A model generated the notes under the pieces. The model made no database searches. It was not told the origin of the DNA and saw only the letters and a program-made list of their open reading frames with translations. A stretch of DNA of 64,000 bases from Folioceros fuciformis (taxonomy: Eukaryota), in contig JBNGIO010005876.1 in the NCBI GenBank assembly GCA_049999805.1, forward strand, positions 20,776 to 84,775, read 5' to 3'. Positions 13,201-56,288 of the stretch are shown here, one piece after another. Positions within the stretch are counted from its first letter, which is position 1; each line of letters starts with the position of its first letter. The position numbers and the translations under genes are program-made.

Positions 13201-14009
13201 AGGGCTGCTACAAACACATGACCATCTGCGTTCGCACCTGAATCCCGCATCCGATGATACAGTTGTATAGCTTGCCTGTCCATACCATGCTTAACATGGG
13301 CAGAGATTATGGAGGACCACATGAAGGCATTCGGTTTGACAACCTCAGTGAACACATCCATCGCATCTTGCAACCTGCCATGAGAGGCATACATTCGCAG
13401 GATGTGGTTGCACAGGAATTCATCCGACTGATGTCCATTTTTAACTGCGAAGGCATGGACGCGGCGACCCAGAACAAGATCTTTCTTCAAGACACATTTT
13501 TTCAGGACAATATAAAAGAGAGCCGTGGAAACACAACAGCATGTCTGAACTAAAACACCCAAAGCCTCGACAGCCACGTTGACAAGGCCCTCGTCACACA
13601 GCTTCCTCACGGTTTCAGCCGTCACATCCGTTTCATATCCAGCAAGACTGTGAGAGCCAGTATCATCCGGCAAGCAGCAGCTGGATGCCCAGCCACGACG
13701 CCCCATCCCCATATCTGGACCGCCTAGCCGTGCATCCACCCAAGATAGACGATTCTGGACCTCCCTGAGACGCAAGCCAGGCAGCCAACCGCACGTTCCA
13801 CCTCCTCCCGCATTCCACAATACTGTAGGGCCCCGAGAGAGGTCCTGGCGAGGGCCCGCGCCCGAACGTCCATCCCCAGTATCCCATCCTCGTCGACCTC
13901 CTGGCTCCTTCACAGACGTGCTACACCCCGCCCCTGCCACCAGCTGCTTCCTCCAAACCAGGTGAGCTCGAGCTCTTCCTAGAGCACCTGTCACCACACT
14001 CCCTCCCAT
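10242..14009 (-). CDS. PLS-class PPR protein 1 (1255 aa) with E1/E2 and truncated WW-type DYW start
   Basis: Repeated ~104-aa P-L-S triplets (VVTWNAM..PDSVTFVCLLQAC..SLVNMYAKCGS), HYTCMVDLLGRAG, AAYVLMSNIY, AWKPPGQSLWTD, then a stop. Confidence 0.95.
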   Translation of the reverse strand: MGGSVVTGALGRARAHLVWRKQLVAGAGCSTSVKEPGGRRGWDTGDGRSGAGPRQDLSRGPTVLWNAGGGGTCGWLPGLRLREVQNRLSWVDARLGGPDMGMGRRGWASSCCLPDDTGSHSLAGYETDVTAETVRKLCDEGLVNVAVEALGVLVQTCCCVSTALFYIVLKKCVLKKDLVLGRRVHAFAVKNGHQSDEFLCNHILRMYASHGRLQDAMDVFTEVVKPNAFMWSSIISAHVKHGMDRQAIQLYHRMRDSGANADGHVFVAALQACARGLDLNTGQQVHAHVLARGLEPDLFVTSCLVDMYAKCGSLEDAEKVFRGLEAKNVVTWNAMLAGYTQQGMGQEALHLYGAMQHDRNVAPDSVTFLCLLQACAIVGPPALEQGKQLHAQIRQRGHQADVFVSSSLVNMYAKCGSLENAHSVFCELGEKDVVTWNAMIAGCSQQGKGQEALALYSVMEEEGSTVPDSVTFVCLMQACASLGTVALDTGRRLHVQIRERGHEADALVANSVVNMYSKCGSLEDAQGVFDRLSQKDIGTWTALIAGYSQQGKGQEALCLYSAMQDEGVAVPNSVTFACLLHACASVGAAALERGKQLHSQIREQGHEADVFVSSSLVNMYAKCGSLEDAQIVFDRLSKKDVVTWTALIAGYSQQGMGWKALQLYSDMLELGISVPDSVTFVCLLQACASVGSQALEKGLELHAQIRERGHETDVFAANSLVNMYAKCGSMEDAHRVFDRLDKKDVVAWNAMIAGYSQKSMGNEALQLYSDMKELLTPIPNPVTFVCLLQACASVGIPALETGKQLHTQITERGNQADVFVANGLVNMYAKCGSLEDARNVFDGLDQKDVLTWTAMIAGYSRQDMGQDALDLFAAMREEGIAPNSMTFVSVLQACASVGAPALETGKKLHVQIREQGYQADVFVASSLVNMYAKCGNLEDAQQVFDGLGEKNVVTWNALLSGYSQQGMGQEALHLYDTMQKEGHAAPDAVTFVCLLQVIADVAALSLGRQLHAQIEEADLQSDLFVAGSLIHMYGKAGSVVDAQQVFDLLPKQDVVTWSALIAGYACQGDSQAVFDLVKRMREDGIQPVGITLLSVLTVCSHAGLLKLGREYFDSMRKDHGIVPTVEHYTCMVDLLGRAGRLDEALSLVRTMSVPPSAAIWHAMLGACRKWSNVEVACHAFQEAVKIDEKDAAAYVLMSNIYMGANMCDQAKQMHAWRKTKRAWKPPGQSLWTDMDGLVHTFAVLDSRQSEQIGLA

Positions 14010-15112
14010 GCCTCAAAAAACACTAAACGGAATAAATTCCCGCCTCCAGCATCTCAATCCTCCGGCAGCAGAGACCAGAGCACCCTTACCCCGCACCTCC
14101 GTAGCCCCCTCCGGCAGCTTCAAACAAGGATACACGCCAATCCCCCTGTCCCCGTCCATCCTCTGTCCGCCAGCAAAACACACAGGCTTCGGGCCCTGAC
14201 TCCTCATCTCTCCAGAGAACCACACCTGCCCAGCGCTCAATCATCGCCGAAGCCCGGTCCACAACCAACCATCCCCGACAAAATCGTGCACCGCAAACCA
14301 TACTACTCTCATAACCCCCGCACCCGGAACAGCCAACTGCTCCAGCATCACCTGAGCCCGCCATGATCCCTACTACCACCATCGCAGTCGCAGTCCTCCA
14401 CTCCTGCCTCTATCACTACCACACAGCGAGGAACAAATCCCGCATTGTCCAAAGATGCCCTCCATCAACCACACTGTCCTTGAACCAAACAACTCCACCG
14501 TTCCCACAACATCCCCCTTCCCACGCATTCCTCCACTGAATCCTAGCCTTCAGGACGAGTCCTGAGAATCCGACAAGCCCGGAAAAGGGCCCCGCCAGGC
14601 CTCCATCTGAGAAGAGACGGCCTCAGACGGGCCTCGTCACATTCGCCACCACGAGATGTCCATGACCAGATTCCGCCCATTCGTATCAATCTCTGAGCTT
14701 CTCGATCTCAGGGCTATGTTCCTCACAATTTACCATCTCCCGCCGAGCGTCCTCTAAACTTTCACTGGAGCTTTAGTTACTCACCGATTCCATCTCCAGC
14801 TCCAGGGCACAAAAGGAGTAAAAGATACCGATCAAACCCTAAGATTTTCCTTAACGCATTAGGCGGATCGCAGCAAGTTCCAATATTCTAGATTCAGAAG
14901 AACATTCTTCGGATTCATCAAAGATTCCGCGGCTTCCGGAAAGAATCTTGTTTCCGGGCTCCATGAAGCTCTTGGTTATATACATATTCAAGTAAGAAAC
15001 CTCAAACAAACTTTGAAACCCAAATATCATCTCATCCAAGCTCTTGCAATTTTTTTATTTTTATTTAAAATATATTCATTTCTATTACACACAGGATATT
15101 TTTACAATAAGT

Positions 15113-16457
15113 ATGGAAATAAGGAAGAATTTTATGATAATTCTTATCATTTTTCTTGTAAGTATTTTTTATAAAATTAGTATGTAACTATTTTTAAATT
15201 TGTTATATATATATATATTTATGACTTTTATTTGATGATAAATCTCCCAATATAAGACTCTAAATGTTCTTTCATCTTGTTCAGGCAGGCAAGCTAGCCT
15301 TAAGTACTGCATCCACATTGAAGTTCTTCGAATCAATGTCCTTTGACAAAGTGCAAGATAAGAATTTGAATATGGATAGACTGACCTATTGGGATACAAC
15401 ACTTCCTCACACATCCATGCCTTTGTCACTAAAGAACATGGTATCTCCTCTCACAAACCAAGAGACAAACATGTTCTACGAGTTGATCAAATTGAACCAA
15501 TTGGATCACAACAATGAACTTCGGGTTAGCTTTTGCACTAAAGCTTCACTTGTTTGCAATACCTTGGATAATGTCACAGATAGGAATGCGCTAATAATCC
15601 CAGCATGTGTTTGGAACCCCTTTGGAATATACTTTGGGTACCTCCCGGGAAAGATGGTGCCCAAAAACTTGTTTGTACATGGAACAAAGGATGACAACTT
15701 ACTAGTGCCTCCCAATGCTGTTTCCAACATTCCCGATCAAGTTCGACTTTTGTGGTTCTTTGAACAGACTCTTTCGTCTGCTGTGGATTTGGATGAGACG
15801 TTCGCTGTCACTGTTGAGATGTTTTATGCAAGTCTGTTGCAAAGAGTTTTTCTTCCTCGTAGACTCGTGAAAGCTTTTGGGAGATTAACGTCTAGTAGAT
15901 TATCCTTCTTCCAGAAATGGTTAAACATTCCTCAGAATTCCACTATGGCTACTTCCATGAAAGACACTGCAGATTTATGTGACGTGGGATCGAATTCTAT
16001 AAAGAATGGAGAAACTCGCAAGTGTGTTACATCCTTGGAGGACATGATTGATCTTGTGCAAGAGATGTTAAGTGGAGCAAGCCATGTTACAAAGATTCAA
16101 GTTCTGACAAACAAGTCCTTAGGTGAGAGAAGCAACTATCATATAAATGAAAGCTTTGTTGTAACAAAAGTAGACTTAAAGAGCGGCATAGAGTCCAAGT
16201 ATGTGTCTTGCCATTCCTTGTTGTTTCCCTTTCAAGTATATTTTTGTCATTATTTTGTAAATACCAAAATATATGATGTTAGCTTAGAGTCCTCCATTCA
16301 TTCAGGGATTAAGATTAACAACATTGCTATATGCCATACTGATACGAGAAATTGGGATCCCCAACATGTGGCCTTCAAAGTGCTTGGTAGCAGACCAGGG
16401 GGGCAAACTATTTGTCATTGGTCCAAACCTAATGCATTTGTATTTGTAACTGCTTAG
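15113..16457 (+). CDS. Secreted BURP-domain protein; exon 1 15113-15157 (signal peptide), exon 2 15285-16457
   Basis: Four CH dyads (VSCH..YFCH..AICH..WDPQHVAF..TICHW). Short exon MEIRKNFMIILIIFL joins in frame via a GTAAGT..TTCAG intron. Confidence 0.88.
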
Positions 16458-17239
16458 TACATAGATTGATAGTTTGAGGGATTGAGAGCAAGATGACATG
16501 CAAAAGATGTGAGATCCCTGTCTACCCAAAGAAAGGATATGAAGAGGATCTCTAAGTTAAGCAAACTATATCCTTTTAGCCTTTGGCCCTGCTTGGTTGT
16601 TCCTCTATCTTTGGAGTAGATGAGACTTCCCATCTCTTTTTCAATAATAAAAATACGTTACCTAAAGTTACCTTATATTCGTTATGTTGTCTTGCAAAAT
16701 GGTGCACGGTTTTGTTCTTTGTGTAAGTACATGGCTTTTTTTTTTTTCCCATATTACCGGTAGCATTTTTACATAATAGCATTTTTACATAATCCCAACA
16801 TCACAGAGGTAGCGCAAACGTCCCATTGTGAGAGCTGCAGGGTGTTGTTTGTTGGAAGGATAGCACATTTGCAGCTCGATAAAGCATGGCTGGTGGTTGC
16901 ATCCTTCCCAGACCGAGTGATGGCGAAATGCTAGGGGAGAGGTGGGAGCTTCTGGAGGATGTGCGGTCACATGTAGTGGGTGAAATGGCTATAGGGAGGA
17001 AGGCAAGTTCCAGTCTGGAATCGCAACCATCAGGAGGCGGTTCTCTGAACGAGTATCATCCTTGTGCTTTGCGAATTGACAGTATCCTGGTTTGCAGAGG
17101 CAGATCGCGTGCTGTCTGTGAAATCTCGTGCAGCTGCGAAGTCTGCGATTATGTCCACCTTCGGCCTAAGTTCGCTGCGGATTGTCCTCCAAGGTGTGCT
17201 CACCGACGGGTGGATCGATGCGTCTAGTATCGGTAGGAC

Positions 17240-20200
17240 ATGGCTGTCTGGAGCGTGTTAACGGGGCTTGTAGGACGAGCTCCTGCCTACCTGACGTCCA
17301 GGAACCAGCACTTGGCAAACAACCAAGCGGCGAGGTGCGTCACTTTCGCGAGAAGCTCGTCGCTACAGAGAGGACATGTAGCTGGAGACGGAAGGAACGT
17401 TACGGCTGAGACCGTGAGCATGTTGTGTGGTGAGGGCCGCGTTCCTGAGGCTGTGGAGGCATTGGGAGTTCTGGTGAGGAAAGAGTGTTCCGTGTCCAAT
17501 CACCTTGTGTACACTGTTCTGAAGAAGTGTGCTGTGGAGAAAGATCTTGTTCTCGGTCGCCGTGTTCATGCCCTGACGGTGAAGGCGGGGTATGAGTCGG
17601 ACACGTTCGTATGCAACCATATTCTGCGAATGTATGCTTCTCATGGCGGGTTGCAAGATGCCATGGACCTGTTCATTCTTGTTGCCGAACCAGATCCCTA
17701 CATGTGGTTTTCCATAATTTCCGCGCACGTTAAGCGGGGGCAAGAGAGGCAGGCCATACAGCTGTATCATTGGATGCGGAGGTCGAATGTGAAGCCAGAT
17801 GATCATGTATTTGCCGCAGCCCTTCAGGCTTGTGCCAGGGCATCAGACTTGAGAACTCTGCAGCAGGTGCATGCAGATGTGTTGGCCAGTGGCGTTGAGC
17901 CGAGTTTGTTCGTCTGTAATTGCTTGGTGGACGTGTATGCGAAGTGCGGCAGCCTGCGGGATGCTCAGTGTGTGTTTGATAGACTTCATCGGAAAGACGT
18001 GGTGACGTGGAATTCCATGATAGCAGGATATTCGCAGCAGGGCATGGGGCAGGAAGCCCTTCGTCTGTATAGGGACATGCGAGATGAAGGTATCGTTACG
18101 CCTGATTCTGTCACGTTCGTGTGCCTCCTACAGGCATGTGCGCGTGTGGGTATCGCAGCTTTTGAGACGGGACAGGAGATCGATGTGCAAAGTAAAGAAT
18201 GTGGACTTGAAGGCGATGTTTTTGTGTCAAACAGTTTGGTGAACATGTATGCAAATTGTGGGAGCTTGGAATATGCCCAGAAAGTATTTAACGGGCTTGT
18301 TCAGAAAGACGTAGTCACCTGGACTGCTCTAATTGGAGGGTATGCCAAACAGGGTATGGGGCAGGATGCCCTTCGTCTTTATGGTCTTATGCAACAAGAG
18401 GGCATGACTTTGCCTAATTCCGTAACCTTCGTGTCCCTGCTGCAGGCATGTGCAAGTGTGGGCACTCCAGCCCTAGAGAAGGGGAAGCAGCTGCATACAG
18501 AAATTAGAGAACGTGGACATGAAGCGGATGAATTTGTCATCAACAGTTTGGTGAGCATGTATGTGAAATGTGGCAGCTTGGAAGATGCTCAGAGAGTATT
18601 TGATGGACTTAATAAGAAAGATGTGGTTACGTGGACTTCTCTCATTGCTGGGTATTCCCAGCAGGACAAGGGCCAGGAGGCCCTCCGTCTCTACAGGTTG
18701 ATGCAAGACGAAGGCATAGCTGTTCCGGATTCCGTGACATTTGTATGCCTCTTGCAAGCTTGTGCCACTGTGGGCAGGCCAGCGCTGAAGGAGGGAAATT
18801 TACTTCACACACAAATAAGAGAAGGAGGATGCCAAGCGGATATAACCGTCGCCAATGGTCTGGTGAACATGTATGCCAAGTGTGGTACCTTGGAAGATGC
18901 TCAAAAGGTGTTTGACGCGCTAGGGCAGAAGGATGTGTTTACGTGGAATGCCATGATATCAGGATATTCCCAGCAGGGAAGAGGCCAGGAGGCCCTTCTT
19001 CTCTACTGTGATATGCAAGAAGAAGGCATTGCAGTACCTGATTTCATGACATTTGTATGCCTCTTGCAGGCATGTGCTAGTGTGGGCAACTCGGCATTGG
19101 AGAATGGAAAGCAGCTTCATACAAAAATTAGAGAACTAGGATACCAAGATGATTTATTTGTAGCCAGCAGTTTGGTGAACATGTATGCCAAATGTGGCAG
19201 GTTGTCATATGCTCGAGAAGTGTTTGACAGACTTTGTGAGAAAAATGTGACAATATGGAATGCCATGATAGCAGCATATTCCCAGCAGGGCATGGGGCAG
19301 GAAGCCCTTCATCTGTACAATGCGATGGACGAAGAAGGCATTGCTATTCCCAATTCTGCAACATTTGTGGGTCTTCTGCAGTCCTGTGCAACTGTGGGCC
19401 CCCAAGCTTTGCAGAAGGGAAAGCAGCTTCATGCACACATTAGAAGACAAGGACTCGAAGCTGATGTGCTTGTACCCAGCAGCCTGGTAAATATGTATGC
19501 CAAGTGTGGCAGCCTGGAGGATGCTCATAGCTTGTTCAACAAGCTCGAGCAACCAGATGTGGCCACATGGAACGCTCTTATCTCAGGGTATTCCCAGCAG
19601 GGCATGGGGCAAGAAGCCCTTGGTCTCTACAGAAGTATGCAAGAAGTAGGTTTTGCAATACCTGATTCCGTGACATTTGTTTGTATTCTGCAGGCATGTG
19701 CAATCATGGGCACCCCGGCTTTGGAGAAGGGGAGACAGCTTCATGAACAAGTTAGAGAATCAGGACATCTCACTGATGTGTGTGTAGTCAACAGTTTGGT
19801 GAGGATGTATGCTAAATGTGGAAGCCTAGGGGATGCTGAAAGTGTATTCAATGCACTGGGCGAGAAGGCTGTAGCGACATGGAATGCAATGATTGCAGGG
19901 TATGTATACCACGATAGGGGACTGGAAGCCCTTCGGCTCTACAGTGTTATGCAGGAAGACGCCAGTGCAGCGGCACCTGATTCTATGACACTTGTGTACC
20001 TCTTGCAGGCATGCGCAAGTTTGGGCAACTCTTCTTTGGAGACAGGGATGCAGCTACATGTGCTCATAATTGATCGAGAGCTTCTATCTGATGTATTTGT
20101 AGCCAACAATTTGTTAAACATGTATACAAAGTGTGGCAGCCTAGAGGATGCTCGCAAGGTCTTTGACAGTCTATGTGAAAAGGACGTGGTGACATGGAAC

Positions 20201-21781
20201 ACCATGATCGCAGCGTATTCCCAACATAGCATGGGTCAGGAAGCCCTTCAACTCTACAGAGATATGCAAGAAGGAGGAAAGGCTACACCAAACTCTGTGA
20301 CATTTGTCTGCTTGTTGCAGGCATGTGCAAGTTTGGGCACCGCGGCTTTGGAAGAGGGTCAGCAACTTCATGCTCTGATTATAGAGCGAGGAGATGAAGT
20401 TGATTTGTTTCTAGCCAGCAGTTTGGTAAACATGTACGCAAAGTGTGGCAGGGCAGGGGATGCCCAGAGGGCGTTTGATGGACTTGATCATAAGGATGTT
20501 GTGACGTGGAATGCCATGATAGCGGGATATTCCCAGCAGGGCAAAGTGCAGGAAGCCTTTCATCAATTGAGTGTTATGCAAGAAGATGGAATGGCTATAC
20601 CTGATTCTGCAACATATGTGTGCCTCCTACAGGCATGTGCAAGTCGGGGCACCGTGGCTTTAGAGAAGGGGAGGAAGCTTCATATGCTGATTACAGAACA
20701 AGAACATACAGCTGATGCGTGTGTAGCCAGCAGTTTGGTGAATATGTATGCAAAGTGTGGCAGTTTGCACGATGCCCAGAAGGTGTTTGATGGACTTGGT
20801 CAAAAAGATGTGGTGACTTGGACTGCTATGATAGCAGGGTATTCCCAGCAGAGCATGGGCCAGGAAGCCCTTCATCTTTACAGTTCCATGCAAGAAGAAG
20901 GCGTGGCTGTACCTGATTCCATCACTTTTGTGTGCCTCCTGCGGGCGTGTGCTAATGTGGCCGCTTTGCATGTGGGAAGGCAGCTACATGCACAGATTGA
21001 AGAGCAAGGTCTTGATCGTGATGTGTTTGTTGGCGGCGGTCTGATAAACATGTATGGCAAGTGTGGGAGCATGCTTGATGCACGGCATGTGTTTGACGCG
21101 TTGCCCGAAAGGGATGTCATCACGTGGAGTGCATTGATTGCAGGCTACACCTGTGAAGGAAGCAGTGACATGGTCTTCGAATTGGTCCATAAAATGAGAG
21201 AGGACGGCATACAGCCCGATGGAATCACGTTCCTTAGTGTGCTAACAGTATGCAGTCATGCTGGTTTAGTGAAGGAAGGGAGAGCGTATTTTGAGGATAT
21301 GAGAAGTCAGTATGACATCAGTGTCACCGTGGAGCACTACACGTGCATGGTGGATCTCTTTGGCCGCGCTGGCCAAGTGGAGGAGGCACTAGATTTTGTA
21401 AGGAGAATGCCTGTACTGCCTAATGCTGCAGTTTGGCATACTCTGTTGGGTGCGTGTAGAAAGTGGAACAACGTGGAGGTGGGAATCCATGCTTTCAACG
21501 AAGCAGTGAAGTTAGACAAGCGGGATGCCGCAGCATACGTTTTGATGTCAAGTGTATATAGCAGTGCCCAGATGTGGGATCAGGCGCGGGATACGCAGGT
21601 GAGAAGAAAAAGAAGCGGGGCATGGAAGGTACCGGGCCAGAGCTGGTGGACGGACATGGACGGACTGGTGCAGAGGTTTGTAGTTGCTTGTCCCAAGCAA
21701 GAGTCAAGAAAGGCTGAGACAGGTTTTGGTTTCTGTGTGAAAGGAAGTGACCTCAAACAATTACACGCGCGCTCCGTTTAG
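17240..21781 (+). CDS. PLS-class PPR protein 2 (1513 aa) with E1/E2 and truncated WW-type DYW start
   Basis: About 12 PLS triplets plus the terminal P2-L2-S2/E region; AWKVPGQSWWTDMDG followed by an early stop. Confidence 0.95.
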   Translation: MAVWSVLTGLVGRAPAYLTSRNQHLANNQAARCVTFARSSSLQRGHVAGDGRNVTAETVSMLCGEGRVPEAVEALGVLVRKECSVSNHLVYTVLKKCAVEKDLVLGRRVHALTVKAGYESDTFVCNHILRMYASHGGLQDAMDLFILVAEPDPYMWFSIISAHVKRGQERQAIQLYHWMRRSNVKPDDHVFAAALQACARASDLRTLQQVHADVLASGVEPSLFVCNCLVDVYAKCGSLRDAQCVFDRLHRKDVVTWNSMIAGYSQQGMGQEALRLYRDMRDEGIVTPDSVTFVCLLQACARVGIAAFETGQEIDVQSKECGLEGDVFVSNSLVNMYANCGSLEYAQKVFNGLVQKDVVTWTALIGGYAKQGMGQDALRLYGLMQQEGMTLPNSVTFVSLLQACASVGTPALEKGKQLHTEIRERGHEADEFVINSLVSMYVKCGSLEDAQRVFDGLNKKDVVTWTSLIAGYSQQDKGQEALRLYRLMQDEGIAVPDSVTFVCLLQACATVGRPALKEGNLLHTQIREGGCQADITVANGLVNMYAKCGTLEDAQKVFDALGQKDVFTWNAMISGYSQQGRGQEALLLYCDMQEEGIAVPDFMTFVCLLQACASVGNSALENGKQLHTKIRELGYQDDLFVASSLVNMYAKCGRLSYAREVFDRLCEKNVTIWNAMIAAYSQQGMGQEALHLYNAMDEEGIAIPNSATFVGLLQSCATVGPQALQKGKQLHAHIRRQGLEADVLVPSSLVNMYAKCGSLEDAHSLFNKLEQPDVATWNALISGYSQQGMGQEALGLYRSMQEVGFAIPDSVTFVCILQACAIMGTPALEKGRQLHEQVRESGHLTDVCVVNSLVRMYAKCGSLGDAESVFNALGEKAVATWNAMIAGYVYHDRGLEALRLYSVMQEDASAAAPDSMTLVYLLQACASLGNSSLETGMQLHVLIIDRELLSDVFVANNLLNMYTKCGSLEDARKVFDSLCEKDVVTWNTMIAAYSQHSMGQEALQLYRDMQEGGKATPNSVTFVCLLQACASLGTAALEEGQQLHALIIERGDEVDLFLASSLVNMYAKCGRAGDAQRAFDGLDHKDVVTWNAMIAGYSQQGKVQEAFHQLSVMQEDGMAIPDSATYVCLLQACASRGTVALEKGRKLHMLITEQEHTADACVASSLVNMYAKCGSLHDAQKVFDGLGQKDVVTWTAMIAGYSQQSMGQEALHLYSSMQEEGVAVPDSITFVCLLRACANVAALHVGRQLHAQIEEQGLDRDVFVGGGLINMYGKCGSMLDARHVFDALPERDVITWSALIAGYTCEGSSDMVFELVHKMREDGIQPDGITFLSVLTVCSHAGLVKEGRAYFEDMRSQYDISVTVEHYTCMVDLFGRAGQVEEALDFVRRMPVLPNAAVWHTLLGACRKWNNVEVGIHAFNEAVKLDKRDAAAYVLMSSVYSSAQMWDQARDTQVRRKRSGAWKVPGQSWWTDMDGLVQRFVVACPKQESRKAETGFGFCVKGSDLKQLHARSV

Positions 21782-23132
21782 GCTAAGATTTACACCAGAT
21801 TGCCTGATGAATTTAGAATAGCAGGAACAGGTGCCCTCTCTGTTCACACTTGGAGCGAGTACATGCTTGGATGTATGAGAAAGTGAAACTNNNNNNNNNN
21901 TCACACTTGGAGCGAGTACATGCTTGGATGTATGAGAAAGTGAAACTACCTCAGATGTCTTCCCATTAGATTAACTGCGTTACTCTAACAAATGTCTCCT
22001 CCTGTAGCTCATACGCGGTCTTCAGGACCTTAACTGTCTGGCAACAAAGCACAGCCATATCCCGACCCCTAACTACCTTTGCTTTTGGAAGCAAGACCTC
22101 GAAGCAGGCTAGTCTCAGATTAGCAGGAGTTTTTGCAGGTGCATGATGCCAGATGGGAGGGTTTGCATAGCTTCCCAAGATTTAAGGTACTAAATTTAAG
22201 GAAGTGGAGTCGGCATGAAGGCTAGGCGATATTGAGCTTGTGATTCATGAAGGTAGGAGGTCAACGCCATGCTAAACTGGCTTTTTGGGGCAGGCCATTG
22301 GATCTAAACCCTAAGCCCTTAAATTCCATTGGTACCACTACACCAGCTCACGTGTCCTATAGCTCAACTATTTGTCCTTACAGAGCTAGGCTAAATGTTT
22401 TAGCCGAATCAGGGGATGCAATCTACTGGATGGCTATGTCTGTAGCGCGTTATGCGGTTTTTTTCGATTCGAACATTGCGTCAGCGTGGACTATAGCCAG
22501 CAGCCTGCCACTTTTCCACGTCCCAAGCGCACGAATTCCCGTCTGCAAAATTCTGCTGAACACCTGTGGATCAAGTGAATCTCTTTGTACTAGCCAATGC
22601 CATCAAACAGCTCGAGAGTCGCTTTTTGTGGGGGTTGTAAGTGGAGCTTTTGTTACATCTAAAACTGTTTTTTGGTGGCATGTTCTATCAGACCTACTTG
22701 CACATCCTTGGTGTAGTCTATACTATCAAATTCCTCATCTTTACTATAGACTGGTGATCACAGGAATCGTTGGTTAACAACCATAAACTACAAGTGGCCT
22801 TGGGCCTAGAGCTCGGAGCTCTACTTGCTTGTACGTCCAGGAGCTCTCAGATCTATTTAGTTACATCTCCAGAAGCTCGGGCACCATCTACTATTTCAAC
22901 GTACCACTGATGAATCCTAAAGGTCCTCAAGAAAGCTGTTATGTACTCCCTGACCTCGCAAAGGACATGGCAGCTGCAACCTTCAAAGTGGATGTTAAGG
23001 AGAATGGACAGATTTCAAACGTTGAGAAAGGCCCCCTTTCCTGGTTACAGACTGTGTTTGGGATTTCCGTCCATATGTGTCCACCAGCTACCTATGTCTT
23101 TCGAAGATTCTCCCTCAACGACCTCAGCTGAC

Positions 23133-37314: not shown

Positions 37315-40300
37315 GAGGGAAGCTCGTTGTTGATTCCGTCTCAGCCAGGTATCAGCGAAAGGGCTTGAAGAAGCACATGTATGTACATAAAAACATTGTG
37401 GATATGCGGTCACGCATCTGTCCTTGGTAGTGCTGTACATTCTTTGGCATGTAGTCACACATGGGGGCATCCCTTGTCCTCAAGCTTGGCATTCACTCAG
37501 CACTTGCTGGAAGATTTGATCCATAATGTACGAGGGATTAGCCACATGTGTGCAGAGCGTGTCAACAGCTTGCTGTCCAGCGGGACTGGATTGTGCAATT
37601 GCTAGTTGCAGTCTCCACCGGAACCAGACCAGTGTGCGTGTCCAGGACTCTCACTTGGGGGAAGCTTTATTGCCTCATGTGCCTCCGAATCTAATGCTTT
37701 TGTCCCAGTCCAAGAACGGGCTCCTCGTTTCCGGAATCAAGTGAAGATAAAACGGATTGTGTCAAGATTGCAGTCCAGGACGCAAGCGTAGGGTTTACAG
37801 GACGAATCGGGAGGCTTGCAGGACGGAATGACTCATCAGTTGCGGGGTAATGTCAGATAGGTAGTATCTCAAATCATCAGCGTGATGAAAGGTTGTGACC
37901 CATCTGTCAACCATGGGCATCATTGGCGGATGCATCAAGGTGAAGCACAGGAAGAAAAAAAAAAAAAGTGCAAGAATCAGCAGCCCGTACTGGGACGTCA
38001 TCCTTACTCCCGCCCCTCCTCCGGGTCCCAGGGCTAGGATTCATCAGTGCTCTGCCTCCACTGAGTCAGGGATAGAACACACCCTGAGTAGCAGTAGGCC
38101 ACGAGTGCCAGCGCTGCGTCTTCCTTGCCCCTCACAGACGACGACGAGCCTTCTTTTCGTCCAGGTTACCGCATGCAGCTATGGCCCTAGGTAGGCGTAC
38201 ATAGATGCATGCTCTGAACAGTGGGCTCGAATTGCGAGCATGAGCTTCCCTCCACATACACACCGATTTCTTGTTGTGATGAGCTGCCATAGGCCAAGAA
38301 GCGCAGTGTTGATGGCAGCCTCCAGTGGCCCGTATGGTCCGACCAAGAAGCGTCAGGTCGTCAGAGCATTCCCATCAGACGCAGAGATCGTACCGCATTT
38401 CAACGGCTACTGTATTCCTTCATCGGCCGCATCACCATGATGATGTATTAATAAATTACCACGCCCCTGCAGAGCGTTTTGTGCCTGGGAGAAGGCGTCG
38501 CAGTCTTGGAAACATGCACTCAATCCGTTGCTGCTCTCCTCCCATCTCCAAACTCGCTGTGAGAGAAGAGAAGCAAGTTACTGGACGACTTGCGAGCATT
38601 CATTCCCCTTGTTTATGATATCTGCATCGCGCAGAGGCATACGGTCCGATCCAGGCCACGGATCTGCTGCCACTTTATGGTCGCCAACAGGAAGAGGTCA
38701 GAGAGCTTCACAGAAGAACGGCATCCTAAGCTGGGAATCAGCCCCCGGAGCTGGTAGACAAGCATTTTTCCTAGGGTTCCGCATCGAGGTGTCAGCCACA
38801 GCGGGTACGACCTTTGCGAACATACCAGCCAGGCCCTTTCATTAGCGCCTGTGAGAGCTCATCAACTTGCCTCCATGTACGTAATCACTATCCTTGGGAA
38901 CAGAGTCCAATTCAAGACCCTGAGACCTCCAGGAAGCAGCGTACGCATGTGTATGTACAGTACAGACATCCATCTGCTCCCTGGTCGACGTCGCCAGTCC
39001 ATAGTCCGGTGCCACCGCCGCAACAGCTCTATTCGCTGACATAGCCAGCCAGCCAGCCAGCCAGCTCTGTGGGGTTAGGGCAGGCAGTGGACAGCGCCAT
39101 CCCACCAACACAGCACATGTCTGTGCACTAGCGCGTTGAAGGGGAGTTAGTGCATCTCGCAGATACTCTCCTTTTTCTCTTGTCTGCTTGGCCAAGCAAC
39201 CCCTCCATTGGACCGAGTCGGACCGTGCATCGCCATCTTTCGCTACCTTCATTGTGACGCCAGGCTTCCTCTCCACTAACTCTCCCTTCCCCGGCCCCAT
39301 TCGGGCCGTGCCCGCAGCGCACGGGCCGCGGGGCGAGACAAGTGTCCGATCTACAGCGGCCGCCGTCATCATGCTGCAAGGTGGGAGCCGGGGCCGGGAC
39401 CGGGTCCGGGCTTTTCCCACCCGCCACGCCCACCGGTGAGCTCGCTACCCGGCCCGGTTACTAACTTACTGCAACGGCCACATGACTCATAATTCGAATG
39501 GGCCAATATGTATCGTATCCGGCCGCATCTGGGCAATGCCGTGTACGGGTTTGTTGCATGTATGCGTGTAAGCGTGTTACTTAGTGATGATGCGGAGCAT
39601 GTGCAGCATGTCCTCATACGAGGGAGATCTGGGACGGATACGGCAGCCCGGCGGGGAAGACAGATATGTATATTTGTGAAGGGTTGCAAGCTCGGCGGGC
39701 TGCCCGGGAAGCCGCAGTTCCGGCGGCCGAGGCCGGTGTTTTGAAAGGGGGGGAAGGCTGCCCGGTCACGAACGTTCATGATGGCGTGCTGCCCGAACAT
39801 GAACGTTACAGCAACGGGCTCATAAAGACGGGGGCCAGTTAACGTTGCATTGGCACAGGTTTGGCCCTGCCTGCTGTTGCCTGCTGGTGCTGGTGCTGCC
39901 CTGCTGCCCTGCCCCCCTCCCCCCGCCCCGCCCTGGTGCGTGTCGGACTCGGGTCTGCCTGGGAGCCCAAGCTTTGCTCAAATCCGGCTTGGCGCCGCAT
40001 TTGCTCGCATTGAGCTCTTCCCGCCTCCTCTGCTCTAGCGGCTCGCAGGAGGGAAAGGGAAAAGGCTGCAGGCGGCTGGCTGGATTCGCGGATTCGCGTC
40101 TCTGCTGCACAGCACACCTGCACCTGTGTGGGTGTTAGGACTCGTATTTCTTGCATTGCGTCGGCATTGGACTGCGCTTTTTCACGGCCTTTGCGGGCGG
40201 GAGCTTGAGCCTTCTTTCAGTGCAGCGGCTGGGCTGGTCTGGGATAGGCGGGGAGGGGAGGGGGTAGCTGCGGAGCCGGTGTTTCTGTTGCTGCTGTTGT

Positions 40301-40505
40301 GAGACTGGGGGCTGCGGGGCCTGGTATTGCAATTGGAATGCGCAGGAGCTCCCTCGGGCGGTGGTGTTAAGGGTGGCGGAATTGGTGTGGGCCGGGTCTT
40401 GCTGGAGGAGGGCTACCTGACTGGTCTGGGCTGGACTGGTCTTTGGCGGGAGGGAGGAGCAGAGAGCAGGGACTATTGTAGAGCGGAGGAGAGTGCTGGG
40501 CCGAC

Positions 40506-43500
40506 ATGGCCGCCCCCGCTCCTGCCAAGCCTGAGGATTTGCAGCACAAGGCGGAGGAGCAGCTGCTCACGCTCAAGTATTGCATCAATGACAATCCGCC
40601 CTGGGGTACGTTCTCCGCTTCCTGCCCTGCACTGCCTTGTTTCCTGCCCCTGCGCCTGGTTCTTCCCCTGCTGGAGCGGGCTGTTTTTCGTAATTGGGCT
40701 GTTTGTGGGCGGGCAATTGGGGGTGGGGGTGGTAGCTGGTGTGCGGAATGGGGTTCTTGGTTGGTTTCCTTGAGGTTTGAGTATGGGAATGCGTGGAGGA
40801 AGGTGTGATTTTTATCTGTAAGGGTCCAGAGGCTGCTTGGGCTGTCGGTGGTGGCCGCCCTTTCGTCTTGGCACCAAAGGTGCGAGCTACGCGTAACCGC
40901 CGCAATGGCACCAGCTTGGATGGTTGTAACCGACTGTTGCCCCTCAAAGCTCCCGGCAACTGCACTCTGACCGATATTCGGCCGACTCGCGGCACGAGGG
41001 ATGGGAGGGGGAAGGGGAATGAATTGCCTGGGTTGGCTGGCACTGGCACTGGCGCTGGCTCTGGCTATGGGTTTCGTCGCCTCACCGCTGCCTGTGTCCT
41101 GCAGTGGAGGCCGTTGCGCTGGGCTTTCAACACTACATCGTGATGCTGGGAGCTGCCGTCATGATTCCGTCGATGTTGGTGCCGTTGATGGGAGGCAACG
41201 ACGTAGGTCTTCTTGCACCACTGCTTTCGCTCCGCCTTTAGGAGACTCCTGGTCTCTCTTGCTGCTCTGCTTCATGTGGCTTCGTGGGTATTGCGCAGCA
41301 CGACAAGGCCAAGGTAATCCAGTCCGTTGTGTTTGTGACGGGCATCAACACGCTACTGCAGACCACTCTTGGGGCCCGCCTTCCAACGGTTGTAGGGAGC
41401 TCCTTTTACTTCATCCTACCTACCATCACGATCATCCGCTCTCCTGCCTTGCTGCACATCAATGATGACCACGAGGTATTAACTTTCTCTCTCTCTCCAC
41501 CTCTATCTACTCGTTTGAGTGGAGCCGGCTGTTTATAGAAGTCGCCAAGCTAATCCCCGGTCCCAGTCTGTTGCCCATTCGCGTTCATATTATCTGCATA
41601 CCCTGGAACAGAGGTTTATTAGAACCATGCGTGCCATACAAGGAGCTACTTTGGCAGGATGCAGCCTTCATATTATCCTTGGATTCAGTGGCCTCTTGGG
41701 CATACTGATCAGGTATGCTTGCTTGTCATTTAAACACGTGATTTGGCTTAATGTAAACAGAGGTTCTTGAGGTCAATGCGTGCTGTCCAAGGAGCTTACA
41801 TCGCAACGTCCAGTCTTCACATAATTCTGGGATTCAGTGGCCTGTGGGGTATAGTGGCAAGGTGAGACGGGGATTGATCTCCATTGTTTCATTTTCTACA
41901 GCATGGAAGGGGGTTTTTTTTTTTTAGGGGGGGTTGGAGTATTGGGCCACAGTAGCATTCCAGAGGATATGGCGACTGAAAGCCACAGTGTCCCCCCGTT
42001 CTCACATGTCATGCCCACTGTTATGTGCCATCAGGTTCTTCACGCCCCTCATGATCGCTCCCACCATCGCAATGGTTGGGCTCGGTCTTTTCAATCAAGG
42101 CTTCCCAGGGGTAAGCGGTCGGTCGATACTCATCCGTGCTCGATCGATTGTCCATGCTTGTGTGCTTGTCGTACTTACTCTGACGGCCTCCGGCTTCCAG
42201 GTGGGCAAATGTGTCGAGGTTGGTCTTCCCCAGATTATTGTGATCCTTGCCTTCTCACAGGTTAGTACTTCTGACAACACTTGTCCTTACCACAATTCAT
42301 CTCACAAGTCACCATTCCTAACTCCAGGATGTGGAATTCCTCAGTTCCTGAGGCACGTGAAGGTCCGAAAGGTTCCAATCTTCGAGCTCTTTCCGATTAT
42401 CTTGGGCGTCGCCGTCGTGTGGGCTTACGCCCATCTGCTCACAATTAGTGGAGCATACGACAAGGCGAGCCCCAAAGGACAACAGCATTGCCGAACCGAT
42501 CGCGCGAACATCATCGAATCATCGCCGTGGTGGGTTGCACCGTCTCTCCTCTCCCGTCACACTGTCCCCGGAGTTCATCGGAAGCTGTGTGATGTCCTAA
42601 TTCCCGTGGCATTCTCTCGTGGTGTGTTCAGGATCCGCATCCCGTATCCTCTGCAATGGGGCGCCCCGACCTTCGACGCCGGCCATGCGTTCGGCTTGAT
42701 GGCAGGAGCTTTTGCCGCTCTTATCGAGGTGGGTTTCACCTTCTCTGTGATAGGGTCACTGGTACTGCGTTGGATGGAACTGACACTCTGCTCTGTCCTG
42801 TTGTCAGTCAACAGCTGATTACTACGCCACTGCACGCCTCTCCGGAGCGACTCCCCCGCCCCCGTTCGTTATCAGCCGAGGAGTTGGTTGGCAGGTAGTT
42901 TTCACATGCTTTTACCGCCATGGCTTCCTTCATTGTTCTTTTGTTCCTATGTGGATGCCTTCTCACTGGGTGGGCGCGGGCACTGTCATGGTGCAGGGGA
43001 TAGGATTACTCATCGCAGGAATGTTCGGAACAACAACTGGAGTGACCATCTCTCCGTACGCCTTCATCGTGGCCCTTCCGTTTTCTTGGCATGAAACGTC
43101 ATGGCAGCTGACGCATTCGTGCTATTTTGTCTGTTGCAGTGAGAATGTGGGAGTTCTTGGTATCACAAGGGTTGGCAGTCGCCGGGTGGTACAGATCTCT
43201 GCAGGCTTTATGATATCTTTCTCTCTACTTGGTGAGCTGATGTCATGCGTCCATTGCACCCCCGGTTTCAGTTCCAGTCAGATCGTGACGTATCTCCTGT
43301 AGCGTCCAATTTGACTGTTGTGGGATACTCTTCCTTGCAGGCAAGTTTGGTGGCATTTTCGCTTCGATACCCCAACCCATTGTCGCGGCCATCTTCTGCA
43401 TTGTCTTCGGGGTTGTCAGTAAGTTTTCTTGTCCGCACCTTCTCCCATCTAAGGCTGAAATGTCTTGTGCTGATGTTGTTCGTCTTTCTCGAGCAGCGGC

Positions 43501-43962
43501 CGTCGGGATCTCACAGCTCCAGTTCGTCAACTTGAACTCCTCCCGGAACATGTTCATCATCGGCTTCGCATTTTTCATGGCCATTTCCGTCCCACAGTAC
43601 TTCAACGAGTTCAGGACTTCGGCTCTTCATGGCCCTGTGCACACTGGAGCTGACTGGGTAAGTTACGCATCACCTAACCCTGCTGTGTAATGTCTGCATC
43701 GCCGACCCTTGGATCGTGCACAAGGTGACGAAAGTGTGTGAACGTGTTACAGTTCAACGATGTGCTCAATGTCATCTTCTCTTCAAGCCCGGTGATTGCT
43801 CTGTTCATCACTGCCATTCTGGACAACACAATGAATCAGGCTTCAGCGAAGGATCGTGGAATGGGTTGGTGGGAGAAGTTCAGAACCTTCAATGGAGATC
43901 CTCGCAACCTGGAGTTTTACAGACTGCCTCTCGGGCTTAATAAGTACTTCCCACCTACCTAA
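40506..43962 (+). CDS. NAT: Nucleobase-ascorbate transporter (NAT/NCS2), multi-exon, with duplicated exon 4
   Basis: YCINDNPPW, LGFQHYIVMLG, GINTLLQT..GARLP, HCRTDR, PYPLQWGAPTF, NAT signature ENVGVLGITRVGSRRVVQ, C-terminal FYRLPLGLNKYFP. Confidence 0.95.
41612..41712 (+). other. NAT exon 4A (101 nt)
   Basis: CAG|...|GTATGC; encodes RFIRTMRAIQGATLAGCSLHIILGFSGLLGILIR. Confidence 0.88.
41761..41861 (+). other. NAT exon 4B (101 nt)
   Basis: CAG|...|GTGAGA; encodes RFLRSMRAVQGAYIATSSLHIILGFSGLWGIVAR. Confidence 0.9.
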
Positions 43963-44553
43963 TAGAGGAAGCAAGATTTCTTCATTTCCTTCTGAGAAGG
44001 ATTCCTGAGAATTTTTGAACTGCGGCAGTACGCTGCAATGGGTCAAGAGGTAGAGAGACACAAGGTGTACAGATAGATACTGACATCGCAGCTTCGCAGG
44101 CACATCTCGGCCCCCAAATTTTAAGTAGAAATTTTTGTACAGCTGTTAGAGATTCGTCACTGCAGAAATTTATATACCATAAGCTATAATTAGACACTGC
44201 AGTATTGAAAACTGCTCTGACAGGCCGTGACGATAACATCTTATTCTGTCCACTCAATATGAATGTTGCACAACAAATACAATTGTGCTTGTCACTTTGA
44301 TATCTCTCAAGCAAAGCAACTTGGCCTCCTCCTATGCCCTGAAGAAATAACCCAACAAAAAGACACAACTATGCTCGACATCTTTAACAAATGTAGGAAA
44401 TTAAATCTCAGTAAAACAGCTCTAGAAAATTTGTGGATGAGGAAATGTTTGTTATCATCCTTATTCAGACCTAACTAATCCCAGGTTTTGCTCAAGAGCA
44501 GTAATTAATAATACATACCGTTTGGAATACAAGACGAGTGACACGAGGCAGTC

Positions 44554-54220: not shown

Positions 54221-56288
54221 ATGGCTCAGGCTCTGGGGCTGAAGCCGTCCGTGATGGTGCCGTCGGGGCACCCGCTGTCGTCGCTCTCCGCCACCAACTG
54301 CGCCAGGCCGCTGCAACAGCGCTGCGCGCACCTGGCGCACGGCCTCAGATTGTGCTCAGCTACGGCCTCNNNNNNNNNNNNNNNNNNNNNNNNNNNNNNN
54401 NNNNNNNNNNNNNNNNNNNNNNNNNNNNNNNNNNNNNNNNNNNNNNNNNNNNNNNNNNNNNNNNNNNNNCTGAGGGAAGTGGAACTGGAGAGTGGTGCTG
54501 ATTCCGACGGGTCAGAGGAGAAGCCTGGAGCCTGGAAGTGGGCCATCCGGAAGAAGATTTGGGACTTGCTGGAGGCCGAGAACTTGGCCCAAAGCCCGCG
54601 GCCTGTGCACCATCGGATTCCGAATTTCGTGGGTGCGAATGTGGCAGCTACCAAGGTGCTGCTCCTGTCAATGTCTGTGCTTTTGGGTTTTGGTGGATTT
54701 TCTTCCATTGTCTGGACGGTGCGGTGCTGAATCTTCTGTGCATCCTCAACATTGTGGAACTGTCCTAGGTGGCAAGTCTGCCAGAATTTGTGGCTGCCAA
54801 GACTGTGAAAGTGAATCCGGATACTCCCCAGAAATTGGTGCGACGCTTGGTCTTGGCTGGTGAGAGCCTTAAGCGTTTTGAGTGAAGAGTATCGGATTTG
54901 CCTCCGCAAATGGCCTGAAGGATCCCGGCTTGAGCATGGGTGCAGAGGGCAAGAAGATGATAACTCCACAGCCTCGGCTTCGGACAGGCTTCTTTTCGTT
55001 GTTGGATCCTGCCGTTCTGTCTTCCGAAGCGATTAGGGAGTGTGTCACCTCAGCAGCGGTAGCCAAGCACGGGAAGCCCCTCACTGTCAAGGCGGACTTG
55101 AAGGTGGATCTGCTTGTTATCGGGTCTGTGGCTGTGGATCCTGCAACTGGTGCCCGTCTCGGGAAAGGAGAGGTAGAGGATGCAGCATGCGTTTCCTGGC
55201 TTGTGATTGTTTAGTGTGCCTTCACGTCAACTCTCCATTCAGCTCCTTTGGGCAATCTGCGATAGGGTTTTGCAGAGTTGGAGTATGGTCTGCTGCGCTA
55301 CATGGGTGCAATCGATGACTCCACTCTAATCGTCACGTCAGGTAGTCTACTTACTCTTCTTCGGTTGTTGGAAGGATGCACCCTCACGAGTCTCTCTCGG
55401 TATGATCTGCTACTGATTGTGCCCCTGATGAGAGGGATGTGCGTTGTCAGTGCATGATAAGCAGCTGGTGGACAACATACCAGTGGAAAAGCTTCTTGTA
55501 CATGACGTCCCGGTGGACATCATCTGCACTCCTACCCAAGTCATCCGCACCAACACAACTATTCCGAAACCTACAGGTAACTCCATGCCATCTGGAATCA
55601 GCTGTAGAATGACTGCTGTTTCTGGCTTCTGTGAGGGACTGGAGCAAGGGAGCTGAGGACAGGAATGGCCTTCGGGGGGCACACAGGTATCTACTGGGAC
55701 AAACTGTCTCCAGAGAAGCTGAGCCAGATCAAAGTACTCAGGGACTTAAAGAGGCAGATCGAAGCTGAAACAGGGAAAAAGCTACCCACAGGGCCGAGTG
55801 AAACACTACCTCCAGTGGCCAAAAGGGTTCCTATTGGCAAGGCTCGAGAACTCCCTCTCAAAGAGAAGCTCGTGCTCTGGTATCTGGATCCCAAGGTAAC
55901 ATGGTTTGATGTGAAGCAGCACGTAGAAAAGGTGGGAGGAGTCGTAGACAGCGTGACCATGTTCGGGGCAAGGACTGGGACACCAAAGCAAGCCGCTCGG
56001 GTGACTCTGAAAGCAGGAGGGACTGCTCCGGTAGAAAAGCTGGCCGAATCTCTCCGGGCCTCGGTTCTGAAAGGCTCCCATGTCAGGGCCAGAGTTCTCC
56101 TACCCAAGGACGGTGCTTCAGAATCGGTGGCGGACATCATAGATGAACAGGAGACAACAGTGCTGTGTACAGCCTCAAACACGGCGGGCGGGCCAGCATC
56201 CCGCGACTCCGAGTCTGAGCCTTCTCCAACAGAAGTAGCTGTTATCGCTACCGCCCAACATGTACGAATGCCCCACTGCCGTCCTTGA
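54221..56288 (+). CDS. COG0212: COG0212 / MTHFSD-like 5-formyl-THF cyclo-ligase paralog with a long C-terminal extension; exon 1 contains a 100-N gap (54370-54469)
   Basis: [79 protein letters not shown]. Exons 54221-54655, 54769-54859, 54946-55172, 55266-55341, 55451-55575, 55687 onward. Confidence 0.9.

What the first reader, a model, noticed from the sequence alone, without database searches (positions are those of the whole stretch)
41612..41861. Tandem homologous exon pair in the NAT transporter: candidate mutually exclusive exons
Seen: two 101-nt exons (41612-41712 and 41761-41861), each with its own CAG acceptor and GT donor and the same phases (0 in, 2 out). They encode 34-aa peptides identical at 24 positions, and 10 of those 24 codons differ synonymously, with no indels or stops. 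They are separated by only 48 nt, shorter than the other introns I modelled here. Joining A to B gives AGA GGT TCT TGA, an immediate stop, and skipping both also frameshifts, so exactly one exon must be used. Known: a very short donor-to-branch-point distance plus frame incompatibility is the classic mechanism enforcing mutual exclusion in animals, and such exons are rare in plants. Inference: both copies are under selection and give two isoforms that differ in the helix after the GSSF substrate-binding segment (ATLAGC vs AYIATS, GLLG vs GLWG), possibly switching substrate or kinetics.
Basis: partly seen in the sequence, partly recalled or inferred. Interest (0 to 1): 0.88.

Follow-up and report, generated by a model that had tools for sequence, protein, structure and literature searches.

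The report
Duplicated exon in plant nucleobase transporter
A plant nucleobase-ascorbate transporter gene carries two tandem copies of one 101-base exon that can only be used one at a time; the available transcript uses the second copy, and the first looks kept by selection but has not been seen in RNA.

Summary
Exons A (41612-41712) and B (41761-41861) are 101-nt homologous copies with AG/GT sites and the same phases. They match at 71 of 101 nt, with 10 synonymous-only and 10 amino-acid-changing codons, and lie 48 nt apart. They sit in a 14-exon, 526-aa bryophyte-like NAT (PF00860) gene and encode helix TM4 of the core domain. Joining A to B gives a stop, and skipping both shifts the frame.

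The only RNA-derived assembly found is a 4798-nt spliced contig with 0 mismatches. It joins exon 3 to B and B to exon 5 and skips A.

A does not look like a neutral relic. dN/dS is 0.18, and "A neutral since duplication" fits the data in at most about 1% of simulations. A keeps most near-invariant residues, although it changes three of them.

No A-like exon appears in 149 homologous proteins or in 40 genomic NAT loci of other plants. The pair is therefore lineage-specific among what was sampled.

Verdict: a real tandem exon duplication and a credible but unvalidated mutually exclusive pair. B is the default exon. Use of A is inferred, not shown.

The parts
40506..43962 (+). Coding region of a plant-type nucleobase-ascorbate transporter (NAT/NCS2, PF00860) gene. 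It has 14 exons and encodes 526 aa with either exon 4 copy.
   Evidence: A spliced contig of run X1 matches with 0 mismatches across 13 GT..AG introns. The translation is open. Identity to bryophyte NATs is 66-69%. Pfam PF00860 matches single exons.
41299..41475 (+). Exon 3, constitutive. It holds the GSSF segment (TM3) and ends in phase 0.
   Evidence: Junctions 41202>41299 and 41475>41761. PF00860 match at 28.4 bits.
41476..41611 (+). 136-nt sequence between exon 3 and exon A. It would be the intron if A is used, and it is part of the 285-nt intron in the observed transcript.
41612..41712 (+). Exon 4A, the upstream copy. It is 101 nt, phase 0 in and 2 out, with intact CAG acceptor and GT donor. 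It was not seen in RNA.
   Evidence: It is skipped by the contig junction 41475>41761. dN/dS against B is 0.18. Its profile score is 55.1 bits against 66.6 for B.
41713..41760 (+). 48-nt spacer between the two copies. It is shorter than every confirmed intron of the gene (78-499 nt), and reading through it reaches a stop.
41761..41861 (+). Exon 4B, the downstream copy. It is 101 nt with the same phases as A. This is the copy present in the transcript assembly and the more canonical one.
   Evidence: Junctions 41475>41761 and 41861>42035. It keeps S17 and W29, which occur in 120 and 112 of 121 distinct homologue segments.
41862..42034 (+). 173-nt intron downstream of B. It contains a G5-T13-A-G7 run near 41912-41938.
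42035..42110 (+). Exon 5, constitutive, entered in phase 2.

Best explanation
An ancestral 101-nt exon 4 of a bryophyte-like NAT (SLC23/NCS2) transporter gene was duplicated in tandem together with its splice sites. This exon is conserved in length and boundaries across land plants and encodes helix TM4 of the substrate-carrying core domain.

The two copies cannot be used together. The 48-nt spacer is well below the shortest intron of the gene, so the donor of A lies too close to any branch point for B. Joining A to B, retaining the spacer, or skipping both copies all give a frameshift or an early stop.

B is the default exon and is the one found in mRNA. A has been kept intact by purifying selection for a long time. 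It is most likely a minor or condition- or tissue-specific alternative that replaces B, which would make the pair mutually exclusive. The resulting isoform would differ at 10 of 34 TM4 residues, including changes at three otherwise near-invariant positions (I14L, S17C, W29L).

Shown: the duplication, the incompatibility, use of B, and the selection signature. Inferred: that A is spliced in at all, that steric hindrance is the mechanism, and that the isoforms differ in function.
For: Anatomy:
- The copies have equal length, phases and AG/GT sites, and form a 108-nt repeat at 72% identity.
- The spacer is 48 nt against introns of 78-499 nt.
- A+B reads RGS*, and skipping both shifts the frame.

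Selection:
- Sd is 15 over 24.5 synonymous sites and Nd is 15 over 74.5 non-synonymous sites. This gives dS 1.27, dN 0.23 and omega 0.18. Differences fall 8, 5 and 17 by codon position.
- In simulations with A neutral since the duplication and B at omega 0.1, the observed pattern (Nd<=15, Sd>=15, no stop) occurs in at most 0.7-1.0% of runs at any divergence. It occurs in about 30-40% of runs when both copies evolve at omega 0.18.
- Against a profile of 121 distinct homologue segments, A scores 55.1 bits. Neutrally drifted copies of B with 15 substitutions have a median of 33.5 bits, and 0.2% reach A's score.
- A is as close to outgroup proteins as B is. For example, identities out of 34 are 25 (A) and 24 (B) to Calypogeia, 24 and 24 to Ceratopteris, and 23 and 25 to Sphagnum.
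- A keeps residues such as RFIRTMRAIQGA and GIL where B has changed.

Gene context:
- The spliced contig has 0 mismatches.
- The segment aligns to SVCT1 TM4, between loop EL2 and TM5, in the core domain.
- The 101-nt exon with AG..GT is conserved in 38 of 40 genomic plant loci.
Against: - No transcript evidence for A exists. The one RNA-derived assembly found (run X1, contigs only) joins across A. Contigs drop rare variants, so this does not show that A is absent from RNA.
- A scores lower than B and lies in the lowest 5% of real homologues.
- A carries residues almost never seen at three near-invariant positions: C17 in 0 of 121, L29 in 1 of 121 and L14 in 2 of 121.
- Mean dN to 26 outgroup exons is 0.356 for A and 0.284 for B.
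- GC3 of A is 0.455, against 0.515 for B and 0.645 for the whole CDS.
- No second copy was found in 0 of 40 genomic NAT loci of other plants, including the Sphagnum orthologue. No A-like segment was found in 149 homologous proteins.
- No competing RNA structure was found.
Confidence: 0.52

Rival explanations
1. Exon A is a silent duplicate (pseudo-exon). It is never used now, having been silenced fairly recently after a long functional period. B alone makes the protein.
For: - Only B is present in the spliced contig, which joins across A.
- A has changes at three near-invariant positions (S17C, W29L, I14L) and a lower profile score of 55.1 against 66.6 bits.
- A has a somewhat higher dN to outgroups, 0.356 against 0.284.
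- A has the lowest GC3 of the two copies.
- No other plant sampled has or needs a second copy.
Against: - Neutral evolution since the duplication reproduces the data in at most about 1% of simulations.
- Neutrally drifted copies reach A's profile score in only 0.2% of cases.
- The frame, both splice sites and the exact length are intact despite near-saturated synonymous divergence (pS 0.61).
- A recent loss of use cannot be excluded by sequence alone.
Confidence: 0.33
2. A acts as a regulatory poison exon. Including it together with B, or with the spacer retained, gives a premature stop and mRNA decay, which tunes transporter level rather than making a second protein.
For: A+B reads into a stop three codons after the junction. 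Reading through the spacer reaches a stop at 41768-41770.
Against: - A poison exon needs no coding conservation, yet A keeps a NAT-like TM4 sequence with omega 0.18.
- The 48-nt spacer is probably too short to be spliced, so A+B joining is unlikely.
- No such joint was seen.
Confidence: 0.08
3. A did not arise in place. It was copied into the intron from a diverged paralogous NAT gene, so the low dN/dS reflects divergence between paralogues rather than selection on A at this site.
For: - A and B share no derived residue that outgroups lack.
- They are as far from each other as from moss, liverwort and fern homologues.
Against: - A has the correct orientation, exact exon boundaries with splice sites, and a position 48 nt upstream of its homologue. 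These fit tandem duplication far better.
- There is no second NAT gene in the window.
- No A-like segment occurs in any of 149 homologues.
- The organism's own paralogues could not be searched because no genome is held.
Confidence: 0.05

Closest known systems
Homologous mutually exclusive exon clusters arising by tandem exon duplication, as catalogued in human (Hatje et al. 2017, PMC5740500, passages read). This includes the 'steric interference' class with donor to branch point under 50 bp. The alpha-tropomyosin exon 2/3 example is recalled, not from a call.
   Same: - Neighbouring exons of equal length, the same frame and splice sites, and clear homology.
- Exon length is not divisible by three, so joint inclusion gives a frameshift.
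- The intron between them (48 nt) is shorter than the 50-bp steric limit used in that paper.
- The exons encode one secondary-structure element, a transmembrane helix.
   Different: - That paper's validation needs junction reads from each exon that bridge the other. Here only B has them.
- The organism is a plant, where such exons are rarely documented.
Predicted, unvalidated MXE candidates in Arabidopsis thaliana from Kassiopeia (PMC3923563, passages read). The paper reports 99 exons left as MXE candidates after initial and terminal exons are set aside. None of its internal candidates was annotated as mutually exclusive.
   Same: A candidate defined by the same sequence criteria (length, frame, splice sites, similarity), with transcript proof lacking.
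   Different: - A different lineage (a bryophyte-like plant) and a different gene.
- This case adds a quantified selection signature and a steric spacer.
- I did not see the candidate list, so I cannot say whether any Arabidopsis NAT gene is on it.
Orthologous NAT genes of bryophytes: Marchantia polymorpha Mp6g08300, Riccia, Calypogeia, Sphagnum, and Physcomitrium NAT2 isoform X1
   Same: - The same gene family, with full-length identity of 66-69%.
- The window's gene is sister to this moss plus liverwort group in a quick tree, with SH-aLRT 89.
- The same 101-nt exon 4 with AG..GT boundaries is present in the Sphagnum genomic loci.
   Different: - They carry a single exon 4.
- All 37 annotated proteins or isoforms checked have one B-like segment with W29.
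- Sphagnum loci L012-L015 have no second copy within 4 kb.
Mammalian SVCT1 (SLC23A1) structures 7YTW and 8JEW
   Same: A homologue of the window's protein aligns along its length at E 1e-89. The duplicated exon corresponds to TM4, the last helix of the first half of the core (elevator) domain.
   Different: - SVCT1 has a long extracellular loop before TM4 and transports ascorbate with sodium.
- No alternative TM4 exon was found in print for SLC23 (search listing only).

Membership tests
NAT/NCS2 transporters (Pfam PF00860 Xan_ur_permease; SLC23) | Significant match to the family profile | tested here: met
   Exon 3 alone scores 28.4 bits against a cut-off of 27. The 232-aa read-through of exons 5-8 scores 25.4 bits, just under the cut-off because intron-coded residues interrupt it. 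All listed homologues carry PF00860.
NAT/NCS2 transporters (Pfam PF00860 Xan_ur_permease; SLC23) | Full-length homology to annotated family members | tested here: met
   The 526-aa model is 66-69% identical over about 520 residues to bryophyte NATs and sits inside the bryophyte NAT clade (quick tree).
NAT/NCS2 transporters (Pfam PF00860 Xan_ur_permease; SLC23) | 14-helix 7+7 fold with core and gate domains | not tested
   Only a homologue (P0005) was aligned to SVCT1 structures. The window's spliced protein was not folded.
Homologous mutually exclusive exon (MXE) cluster | Adjacent exons of similar length, same reading frame and phases, own splice sites, sequence homology | tested here: met
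   Both are 101 nt, phase 0 in and 2 out, with CAG..GT sites. 71 of 101 nt and 24 of 34 aa are identical.
Homologous mutually exclusive exon (MXE) cluster | Splice-junction evidence from each exon to the flanking exons, bridging the other copy (criteria R2 and R3 of PMC5740500) | tested here: not met
   B has junctions 41475>41761 and 41861>42035. No junction was seen for A. The evidence is one run kept as assembled contigs, which drop rare variants. The criterion is unmet for lack of data, not disproved.
Homologous mutually exclusive exon (MXE) cluster | No transcripts joining the two exons, or joining causes a frameshift (criterion R1) | tested here: met
   A+B gives a stop after three codons. 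No A-B joint was seen.
Homologous mutually exclusive exon (MXE) cluster | Both copies under purifying selection | tested here: met
   Omega is 0.18. The model with A neutral fits in at most about 1% of simulations. A's profile score is far above that of drifted copies. The sample is only 33 codons.
Homologous mutually exclusive exon (MXE) cluster | Pair conserved in related species | tested here: not met
   0 of 40 genomic NAT loci from metagenome contigs have a second copy. 0 of 149 homologous proteins have an A-like segment. All are distant relatives with at most 81% identity in the exon. No close relative could be examined.
Steric-hindrance type of mutual exclusion | Donor of the upstream exon lies under 50 nt from the branch point of the downstream exon | tested here: met
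   The whole spacer is 48 nt, so any branch point inside it is under 48 nt from A's donor. The shortest confirmed intron of the gene is 78 nt. The branch point itself was not mapped.

The most novel reading that the evidence does not exclude
This is a genuine, anciently maintained mutually exclusive exon pair in a non-seed land plant. Exclusivity is enforced sterically by a 48-nt spacer and backed up by frameshift. The pair swaps helix TM4 of the elevator core domain of a NAT transporter, replacing the near-invariant Ser17 and Trp29, to give a second transporter with altered substrate handling or kinetics in particular tissues or conditions. It would be one of very few validated homologous MXEs in plants and the first in the NAT/SLC23 family.
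Probability: 0.35. Interest if true: 0.65.

Novelty: new member of a known kind. Interest (0 to 1): 0.45.

Why it matters
Mutually exclusive homologous exons are common and well studied in animals. They are hardly documented in plants, where alternative splicing mostly means intron retention. A validated case would show that plants also use tandem exon duplication with steric and frame-based exclusion to make protein variants.

This case would also provide a natural TM4 swap in an elevator-type transporter, which can be assayed directly. If A proves unused, the locus is still a clear example of an intact duplicated exon that gene annotators should not merge into a model.

Tried and rejected
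- **Whole genome.** None is held for this window, so the organism's paralogues and other introns could not be examined.
- **RNA runs.** One holder only was listed (X1, guessed to be RNA, kept as contigs, 0.34 of words). No listed holder is on record as RNA. There is no cover over 41479-41740 apart from the contig that joins across it.
- **Protein searches for an A-type peptide.**
  - The 33-aa query was too short.
  - The 41-aa reference around A, searched against longer proteins, gave 4 hits among 106 candidates, all B-like.
  - Exon 3 as query gave nothing among 20 candidates.
  - The organism's own protein is not in that collection, so this absence says little.
- **Exhaustive representative search and word search with exons 5-8**. 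These gave homologues only, and none was A-like.
- **Isoforms of bryophyte orthologues**. None differs in this exon.
- **Metagenome contigs**. There were 46 loci and none had a second copy. None is a close relative.
- **Competing RNA structures.** The fold of 41476-42034 has a z-score of +1.70, less stable than shuffles. The only inverted repeat is 14 nt at 79%.
- **Residual similarity of the flanking introns.** There is none apart from one 14-nt match.
- **Earlier findings of this scan.** Nothing was found in 4 look-ups.
- **Literature.**
  - 0 papers hold both 'mutually exclusive exons' and 'nucleobase-ascorbate transporter'.
  - The search 'mutually exclusive' + SLC23 + exon found 12 papers, of which 10 were listed. 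None of those 10 titles or abstract starts concerns a coding MXE in SLC23 (listing only).
  - 'TM4' is not mentioned in PMC11219872.
- **Supplements.** Supplementary files of the papers were not seen. The Kassiopeia candidate lists could bear on whether NAT genes were predicted before.
- **Folding the two isoforms.** Not attempted, because spliced proteins are not accepted by the folding tools.

Full report
**Observation**

- Each copy is 101 nt, preceded by CAG and followed by GT.
- 71 of 101 bases are identical.
- Of the 33 whole codons, 13 are identical, 10 differ only synonymously and 10 change the residue. With the shared split Arg codon, 24 of 34 residues agree.
- There are no indels and no stops.

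The repeat finder reports the pair as a 108-nt direct repeat at 72% identity that includes the last bases of the acceptor and the GT of the donor. The two copies are 48 nt apart. Exon 3 + A + exon 5 and exon 3 + B + exon 5 are both open. A joined to B reads RGS-stop, and leaving both out shifts the frame. The similarity is not chance. A local protein alignment seeded with B finds A at score 115. The same scan in 46 control loci gives best second hits of only 23-37.

**The gene**

No genome is held for the window. One public run (X1, kept as assembled contigs) holds the gene. Laid on 40300-44200, it gives a 4798-nt contig with 0 mismatches that skips 13 GT..AG introns, so it derives from spliced RNA. 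With these junctions the gene has 14 exons, a 526-aa product and introns of 78-499 nt.

Single exons match Pfam PF00860. The full product is 66-69% identical to NAT proteins of Sphagnum, Ceratodon, Physcomitrium, Marchantia (Mp6g08300), Riccia and Calypogeia. A quick maximum-likelihood tree places it inside the bryophyte NAT clade. There it is sister (SH-aLRT 89) to a moss plus liverwort orthologue group. The careful tree search did not finish.

The organism is therefore a land plant about equally distant from mosses and liverworts. I did not identify it further.

**What the exon encodes**

A close homologue (P0005) aligns along its whole length to mouse and human SVCT1 structures at E 1e-89. 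The duplicated segment aligns to the helix between the long extracellular loop EL2 and TM5. According to the passages read from PMC10011568, that helix is TM4. It is the last helix of the first half of the core domain (TM1-4 and TM8-11), which carries the substrate site between TM3 and TM10.

**Transcript evidence**

The contig joins 41475>41761 and 41861>42035. It contains B and skips A. Nothing else in that run lies on A. Contigs drop rare variants, and only one run was available. This shows that B is used and is the major form in that sample. It does not show that A is never used. The validation criteria for mutually exclusive exons in PMC5740500 (passages) require junctions from each exon that bridge the other. 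Those criteria are met for B only.

**Is A a relic?**

Several results argue against long neutral decay.
- By Nei-Gojobori counting, synonymous differences are 15 over 24.5 sites and non-synonymous differences are 15 over 74.5 sites. This gives dS 1.27, dN 0.23 and omega 0.18. Third positions carry 17 of the 30 differences.
- I simulated A as neutral since the duplication with B at omega 0.1. At most 0.7-1.0% of runs, at any divergence, gave as few non-synonymous and as many synonymous differences without a stop. With both copies at omega 0.18 the figure is about 30-40%.
- Against a profile of 121 distinct homologue segments (from 149 proteins), A scores 55.1 bits and B 66.6. Copies of B drifted neutrally by 15 substitutions have a median of 33.5 bits, and only 0.2% reach A's score.
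- A is as similar to outgroup proteins as B is. A keeps ancestral residues where B has changed (RFIRTMRAIQGA, GIL), and B keeps others where A has changed.

Other results point toward relaxation or specialisation of A.
- It lies in the lowest 5% of real homologues.
- It has Leu for Ile14 (2 of 121), Cys for Ser17 (0 of 121) and Leu for Trp29 (1 of 121).
- Its mean dN to 26 outgroup exons is 0.356, against 0.284 for B.
- Its GC3 is 0.455, against 0.515 for B and 0.645 for the whole CDS.

These features fit either a specialised alternative helix or some relaxation. A recent loss of use cannot be excluded from 33 codons.

**Relatives**

No A-like segment occurs in the 149 homologous proteins examined. 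Seven are marginally closer to A than to B, by one residue each. All 37 annotated bryophyte proteins or isoforms checked, including five products of Marchantia Mp6g08300, carry one B-like segment with Trp29.

A scan of metagenome contigs with an alignment of exon-4 peptides returned 46 loci.
- 40 are genomic and 6 look like cDNA.
- 38 of the 40 genomic loci have the same 101-nt exon with AG..GT boundaries.
- None has a second copy within 4 kb on the same strand.
- This includes four loci identical to the Sphagnum orthologue.

The duplication is therefore not an old shared feature of plant NAT genes. It is specific to the window's lineage among what could be sampled. All sampled loci are distant, with at most 81% identity in the exon. 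Synonymous divergence between A and B (pS 0.61) is nearly as high as between either copy and other plant lineages, so the duplication is old.

**Mechanism**

The 48-nt spacer is well below the shortest confirmed intron of the gene (78 nt). It is also below the 50-nt donor-to-branch-point limit used to define steric interference in PMC5740500. Reading through the spacer reaches a stop at 41768-41770. Exclusion is thus expected both from geometry and from frame.

No competing RNA structure was found. The region folds less stably than shuffled sequence (z = +1.70), and the only inverted repeat is 14 nt at 79%. What chooses between A and B is unknown.

**Comparison and novelty**

The anatomy is that of a classical tandem-duplication MXE cluster of the steric and frameshift kind known from animals. 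In plants, Kassiopeia predicted candidates by the same sequence criteria in Arabidopsis. After initial and terminal exons were set aside, 99 exons remained as candidates, and none of its internal candidates was annotated as mutually exclusive (PMC3923563, passages).

I found no paper linking such exons to NAT or SLC23 genes. One search returned 0 papers. The 10 titles and abstract starts listed (of 12 papers found) showed nothing relevant. Supplements were not available.

The finding is a new member of a known kind, pending transcript proof.

**Verdict**

The pair is real, mutually incompatible and shaped by purifying selection, but only B is seen in RNA and no relative sampled has the pair.
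- I put about 0.5 on A being a used, mutually exclusive alternative. I put about 0.3 on A being a now-silent duplicate. The rest goes to a poison-exon role or a paralogue-derived insert.

Noticed in passing
window 42111-43496 (introns of the NAT gene): 8 of the gene's 13 introns have lengths divisible by three (binomial P = 0.035). Six of these, of 90, 84, 102, 102, 84 and 78 nt, have no in-frame stop, so retaining them would keep the frame. The chance of being stop-free is 0.29-0.43 for each when shuffled. As a result exons 5-8, 9-11 and 12-13 each lie in one long open frame.
   Followed up: partly
window 41581-41594 and 41664-41677: A 14-nt stretch in the intron upstream of exon A matches the interior of exon A at 13 of 14 bases. 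Only 2 of 500 shuffles score as well. The match does not extend. It could be a remnant of a further partial copy or chance.
   Followed up: partly
window about 41912-41938: A run of G5, T13, A, G7 lies in the intron downstream of exon B. No role was examined.
   Followed up: no
window upstream of 40300 and downstream of 44200: The 4798-nt spliced contig extends about 590 nt upstream of 40300 and about 2180 nt beyond 44200. That is roughly 800 nt before the start codon and 2.4 kb past the stop codon. This means either very long untranslated regions or an overlapping neighbouring transcript merged by the assembler.
   Followed up: no
locus L022, 707-808: One moss-like metagenome locus has an in-frame stop at codon 3 of its exon-4 equivalent (RF*HAM...). 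It may be a pseudogene copy or a sequencing error on a low-coverage contig.
   Followed up: no
window 10001-22000: Strong GC skew of opposite sign lies in adjacent blocks, about -0.2 to -0.25 over 10-16 kb and +0.17 to +0.23 over 16-22 kb. Three runs of N lie at 9874-9883, 21891-21900 and 54370-54469.
   Followed up: no
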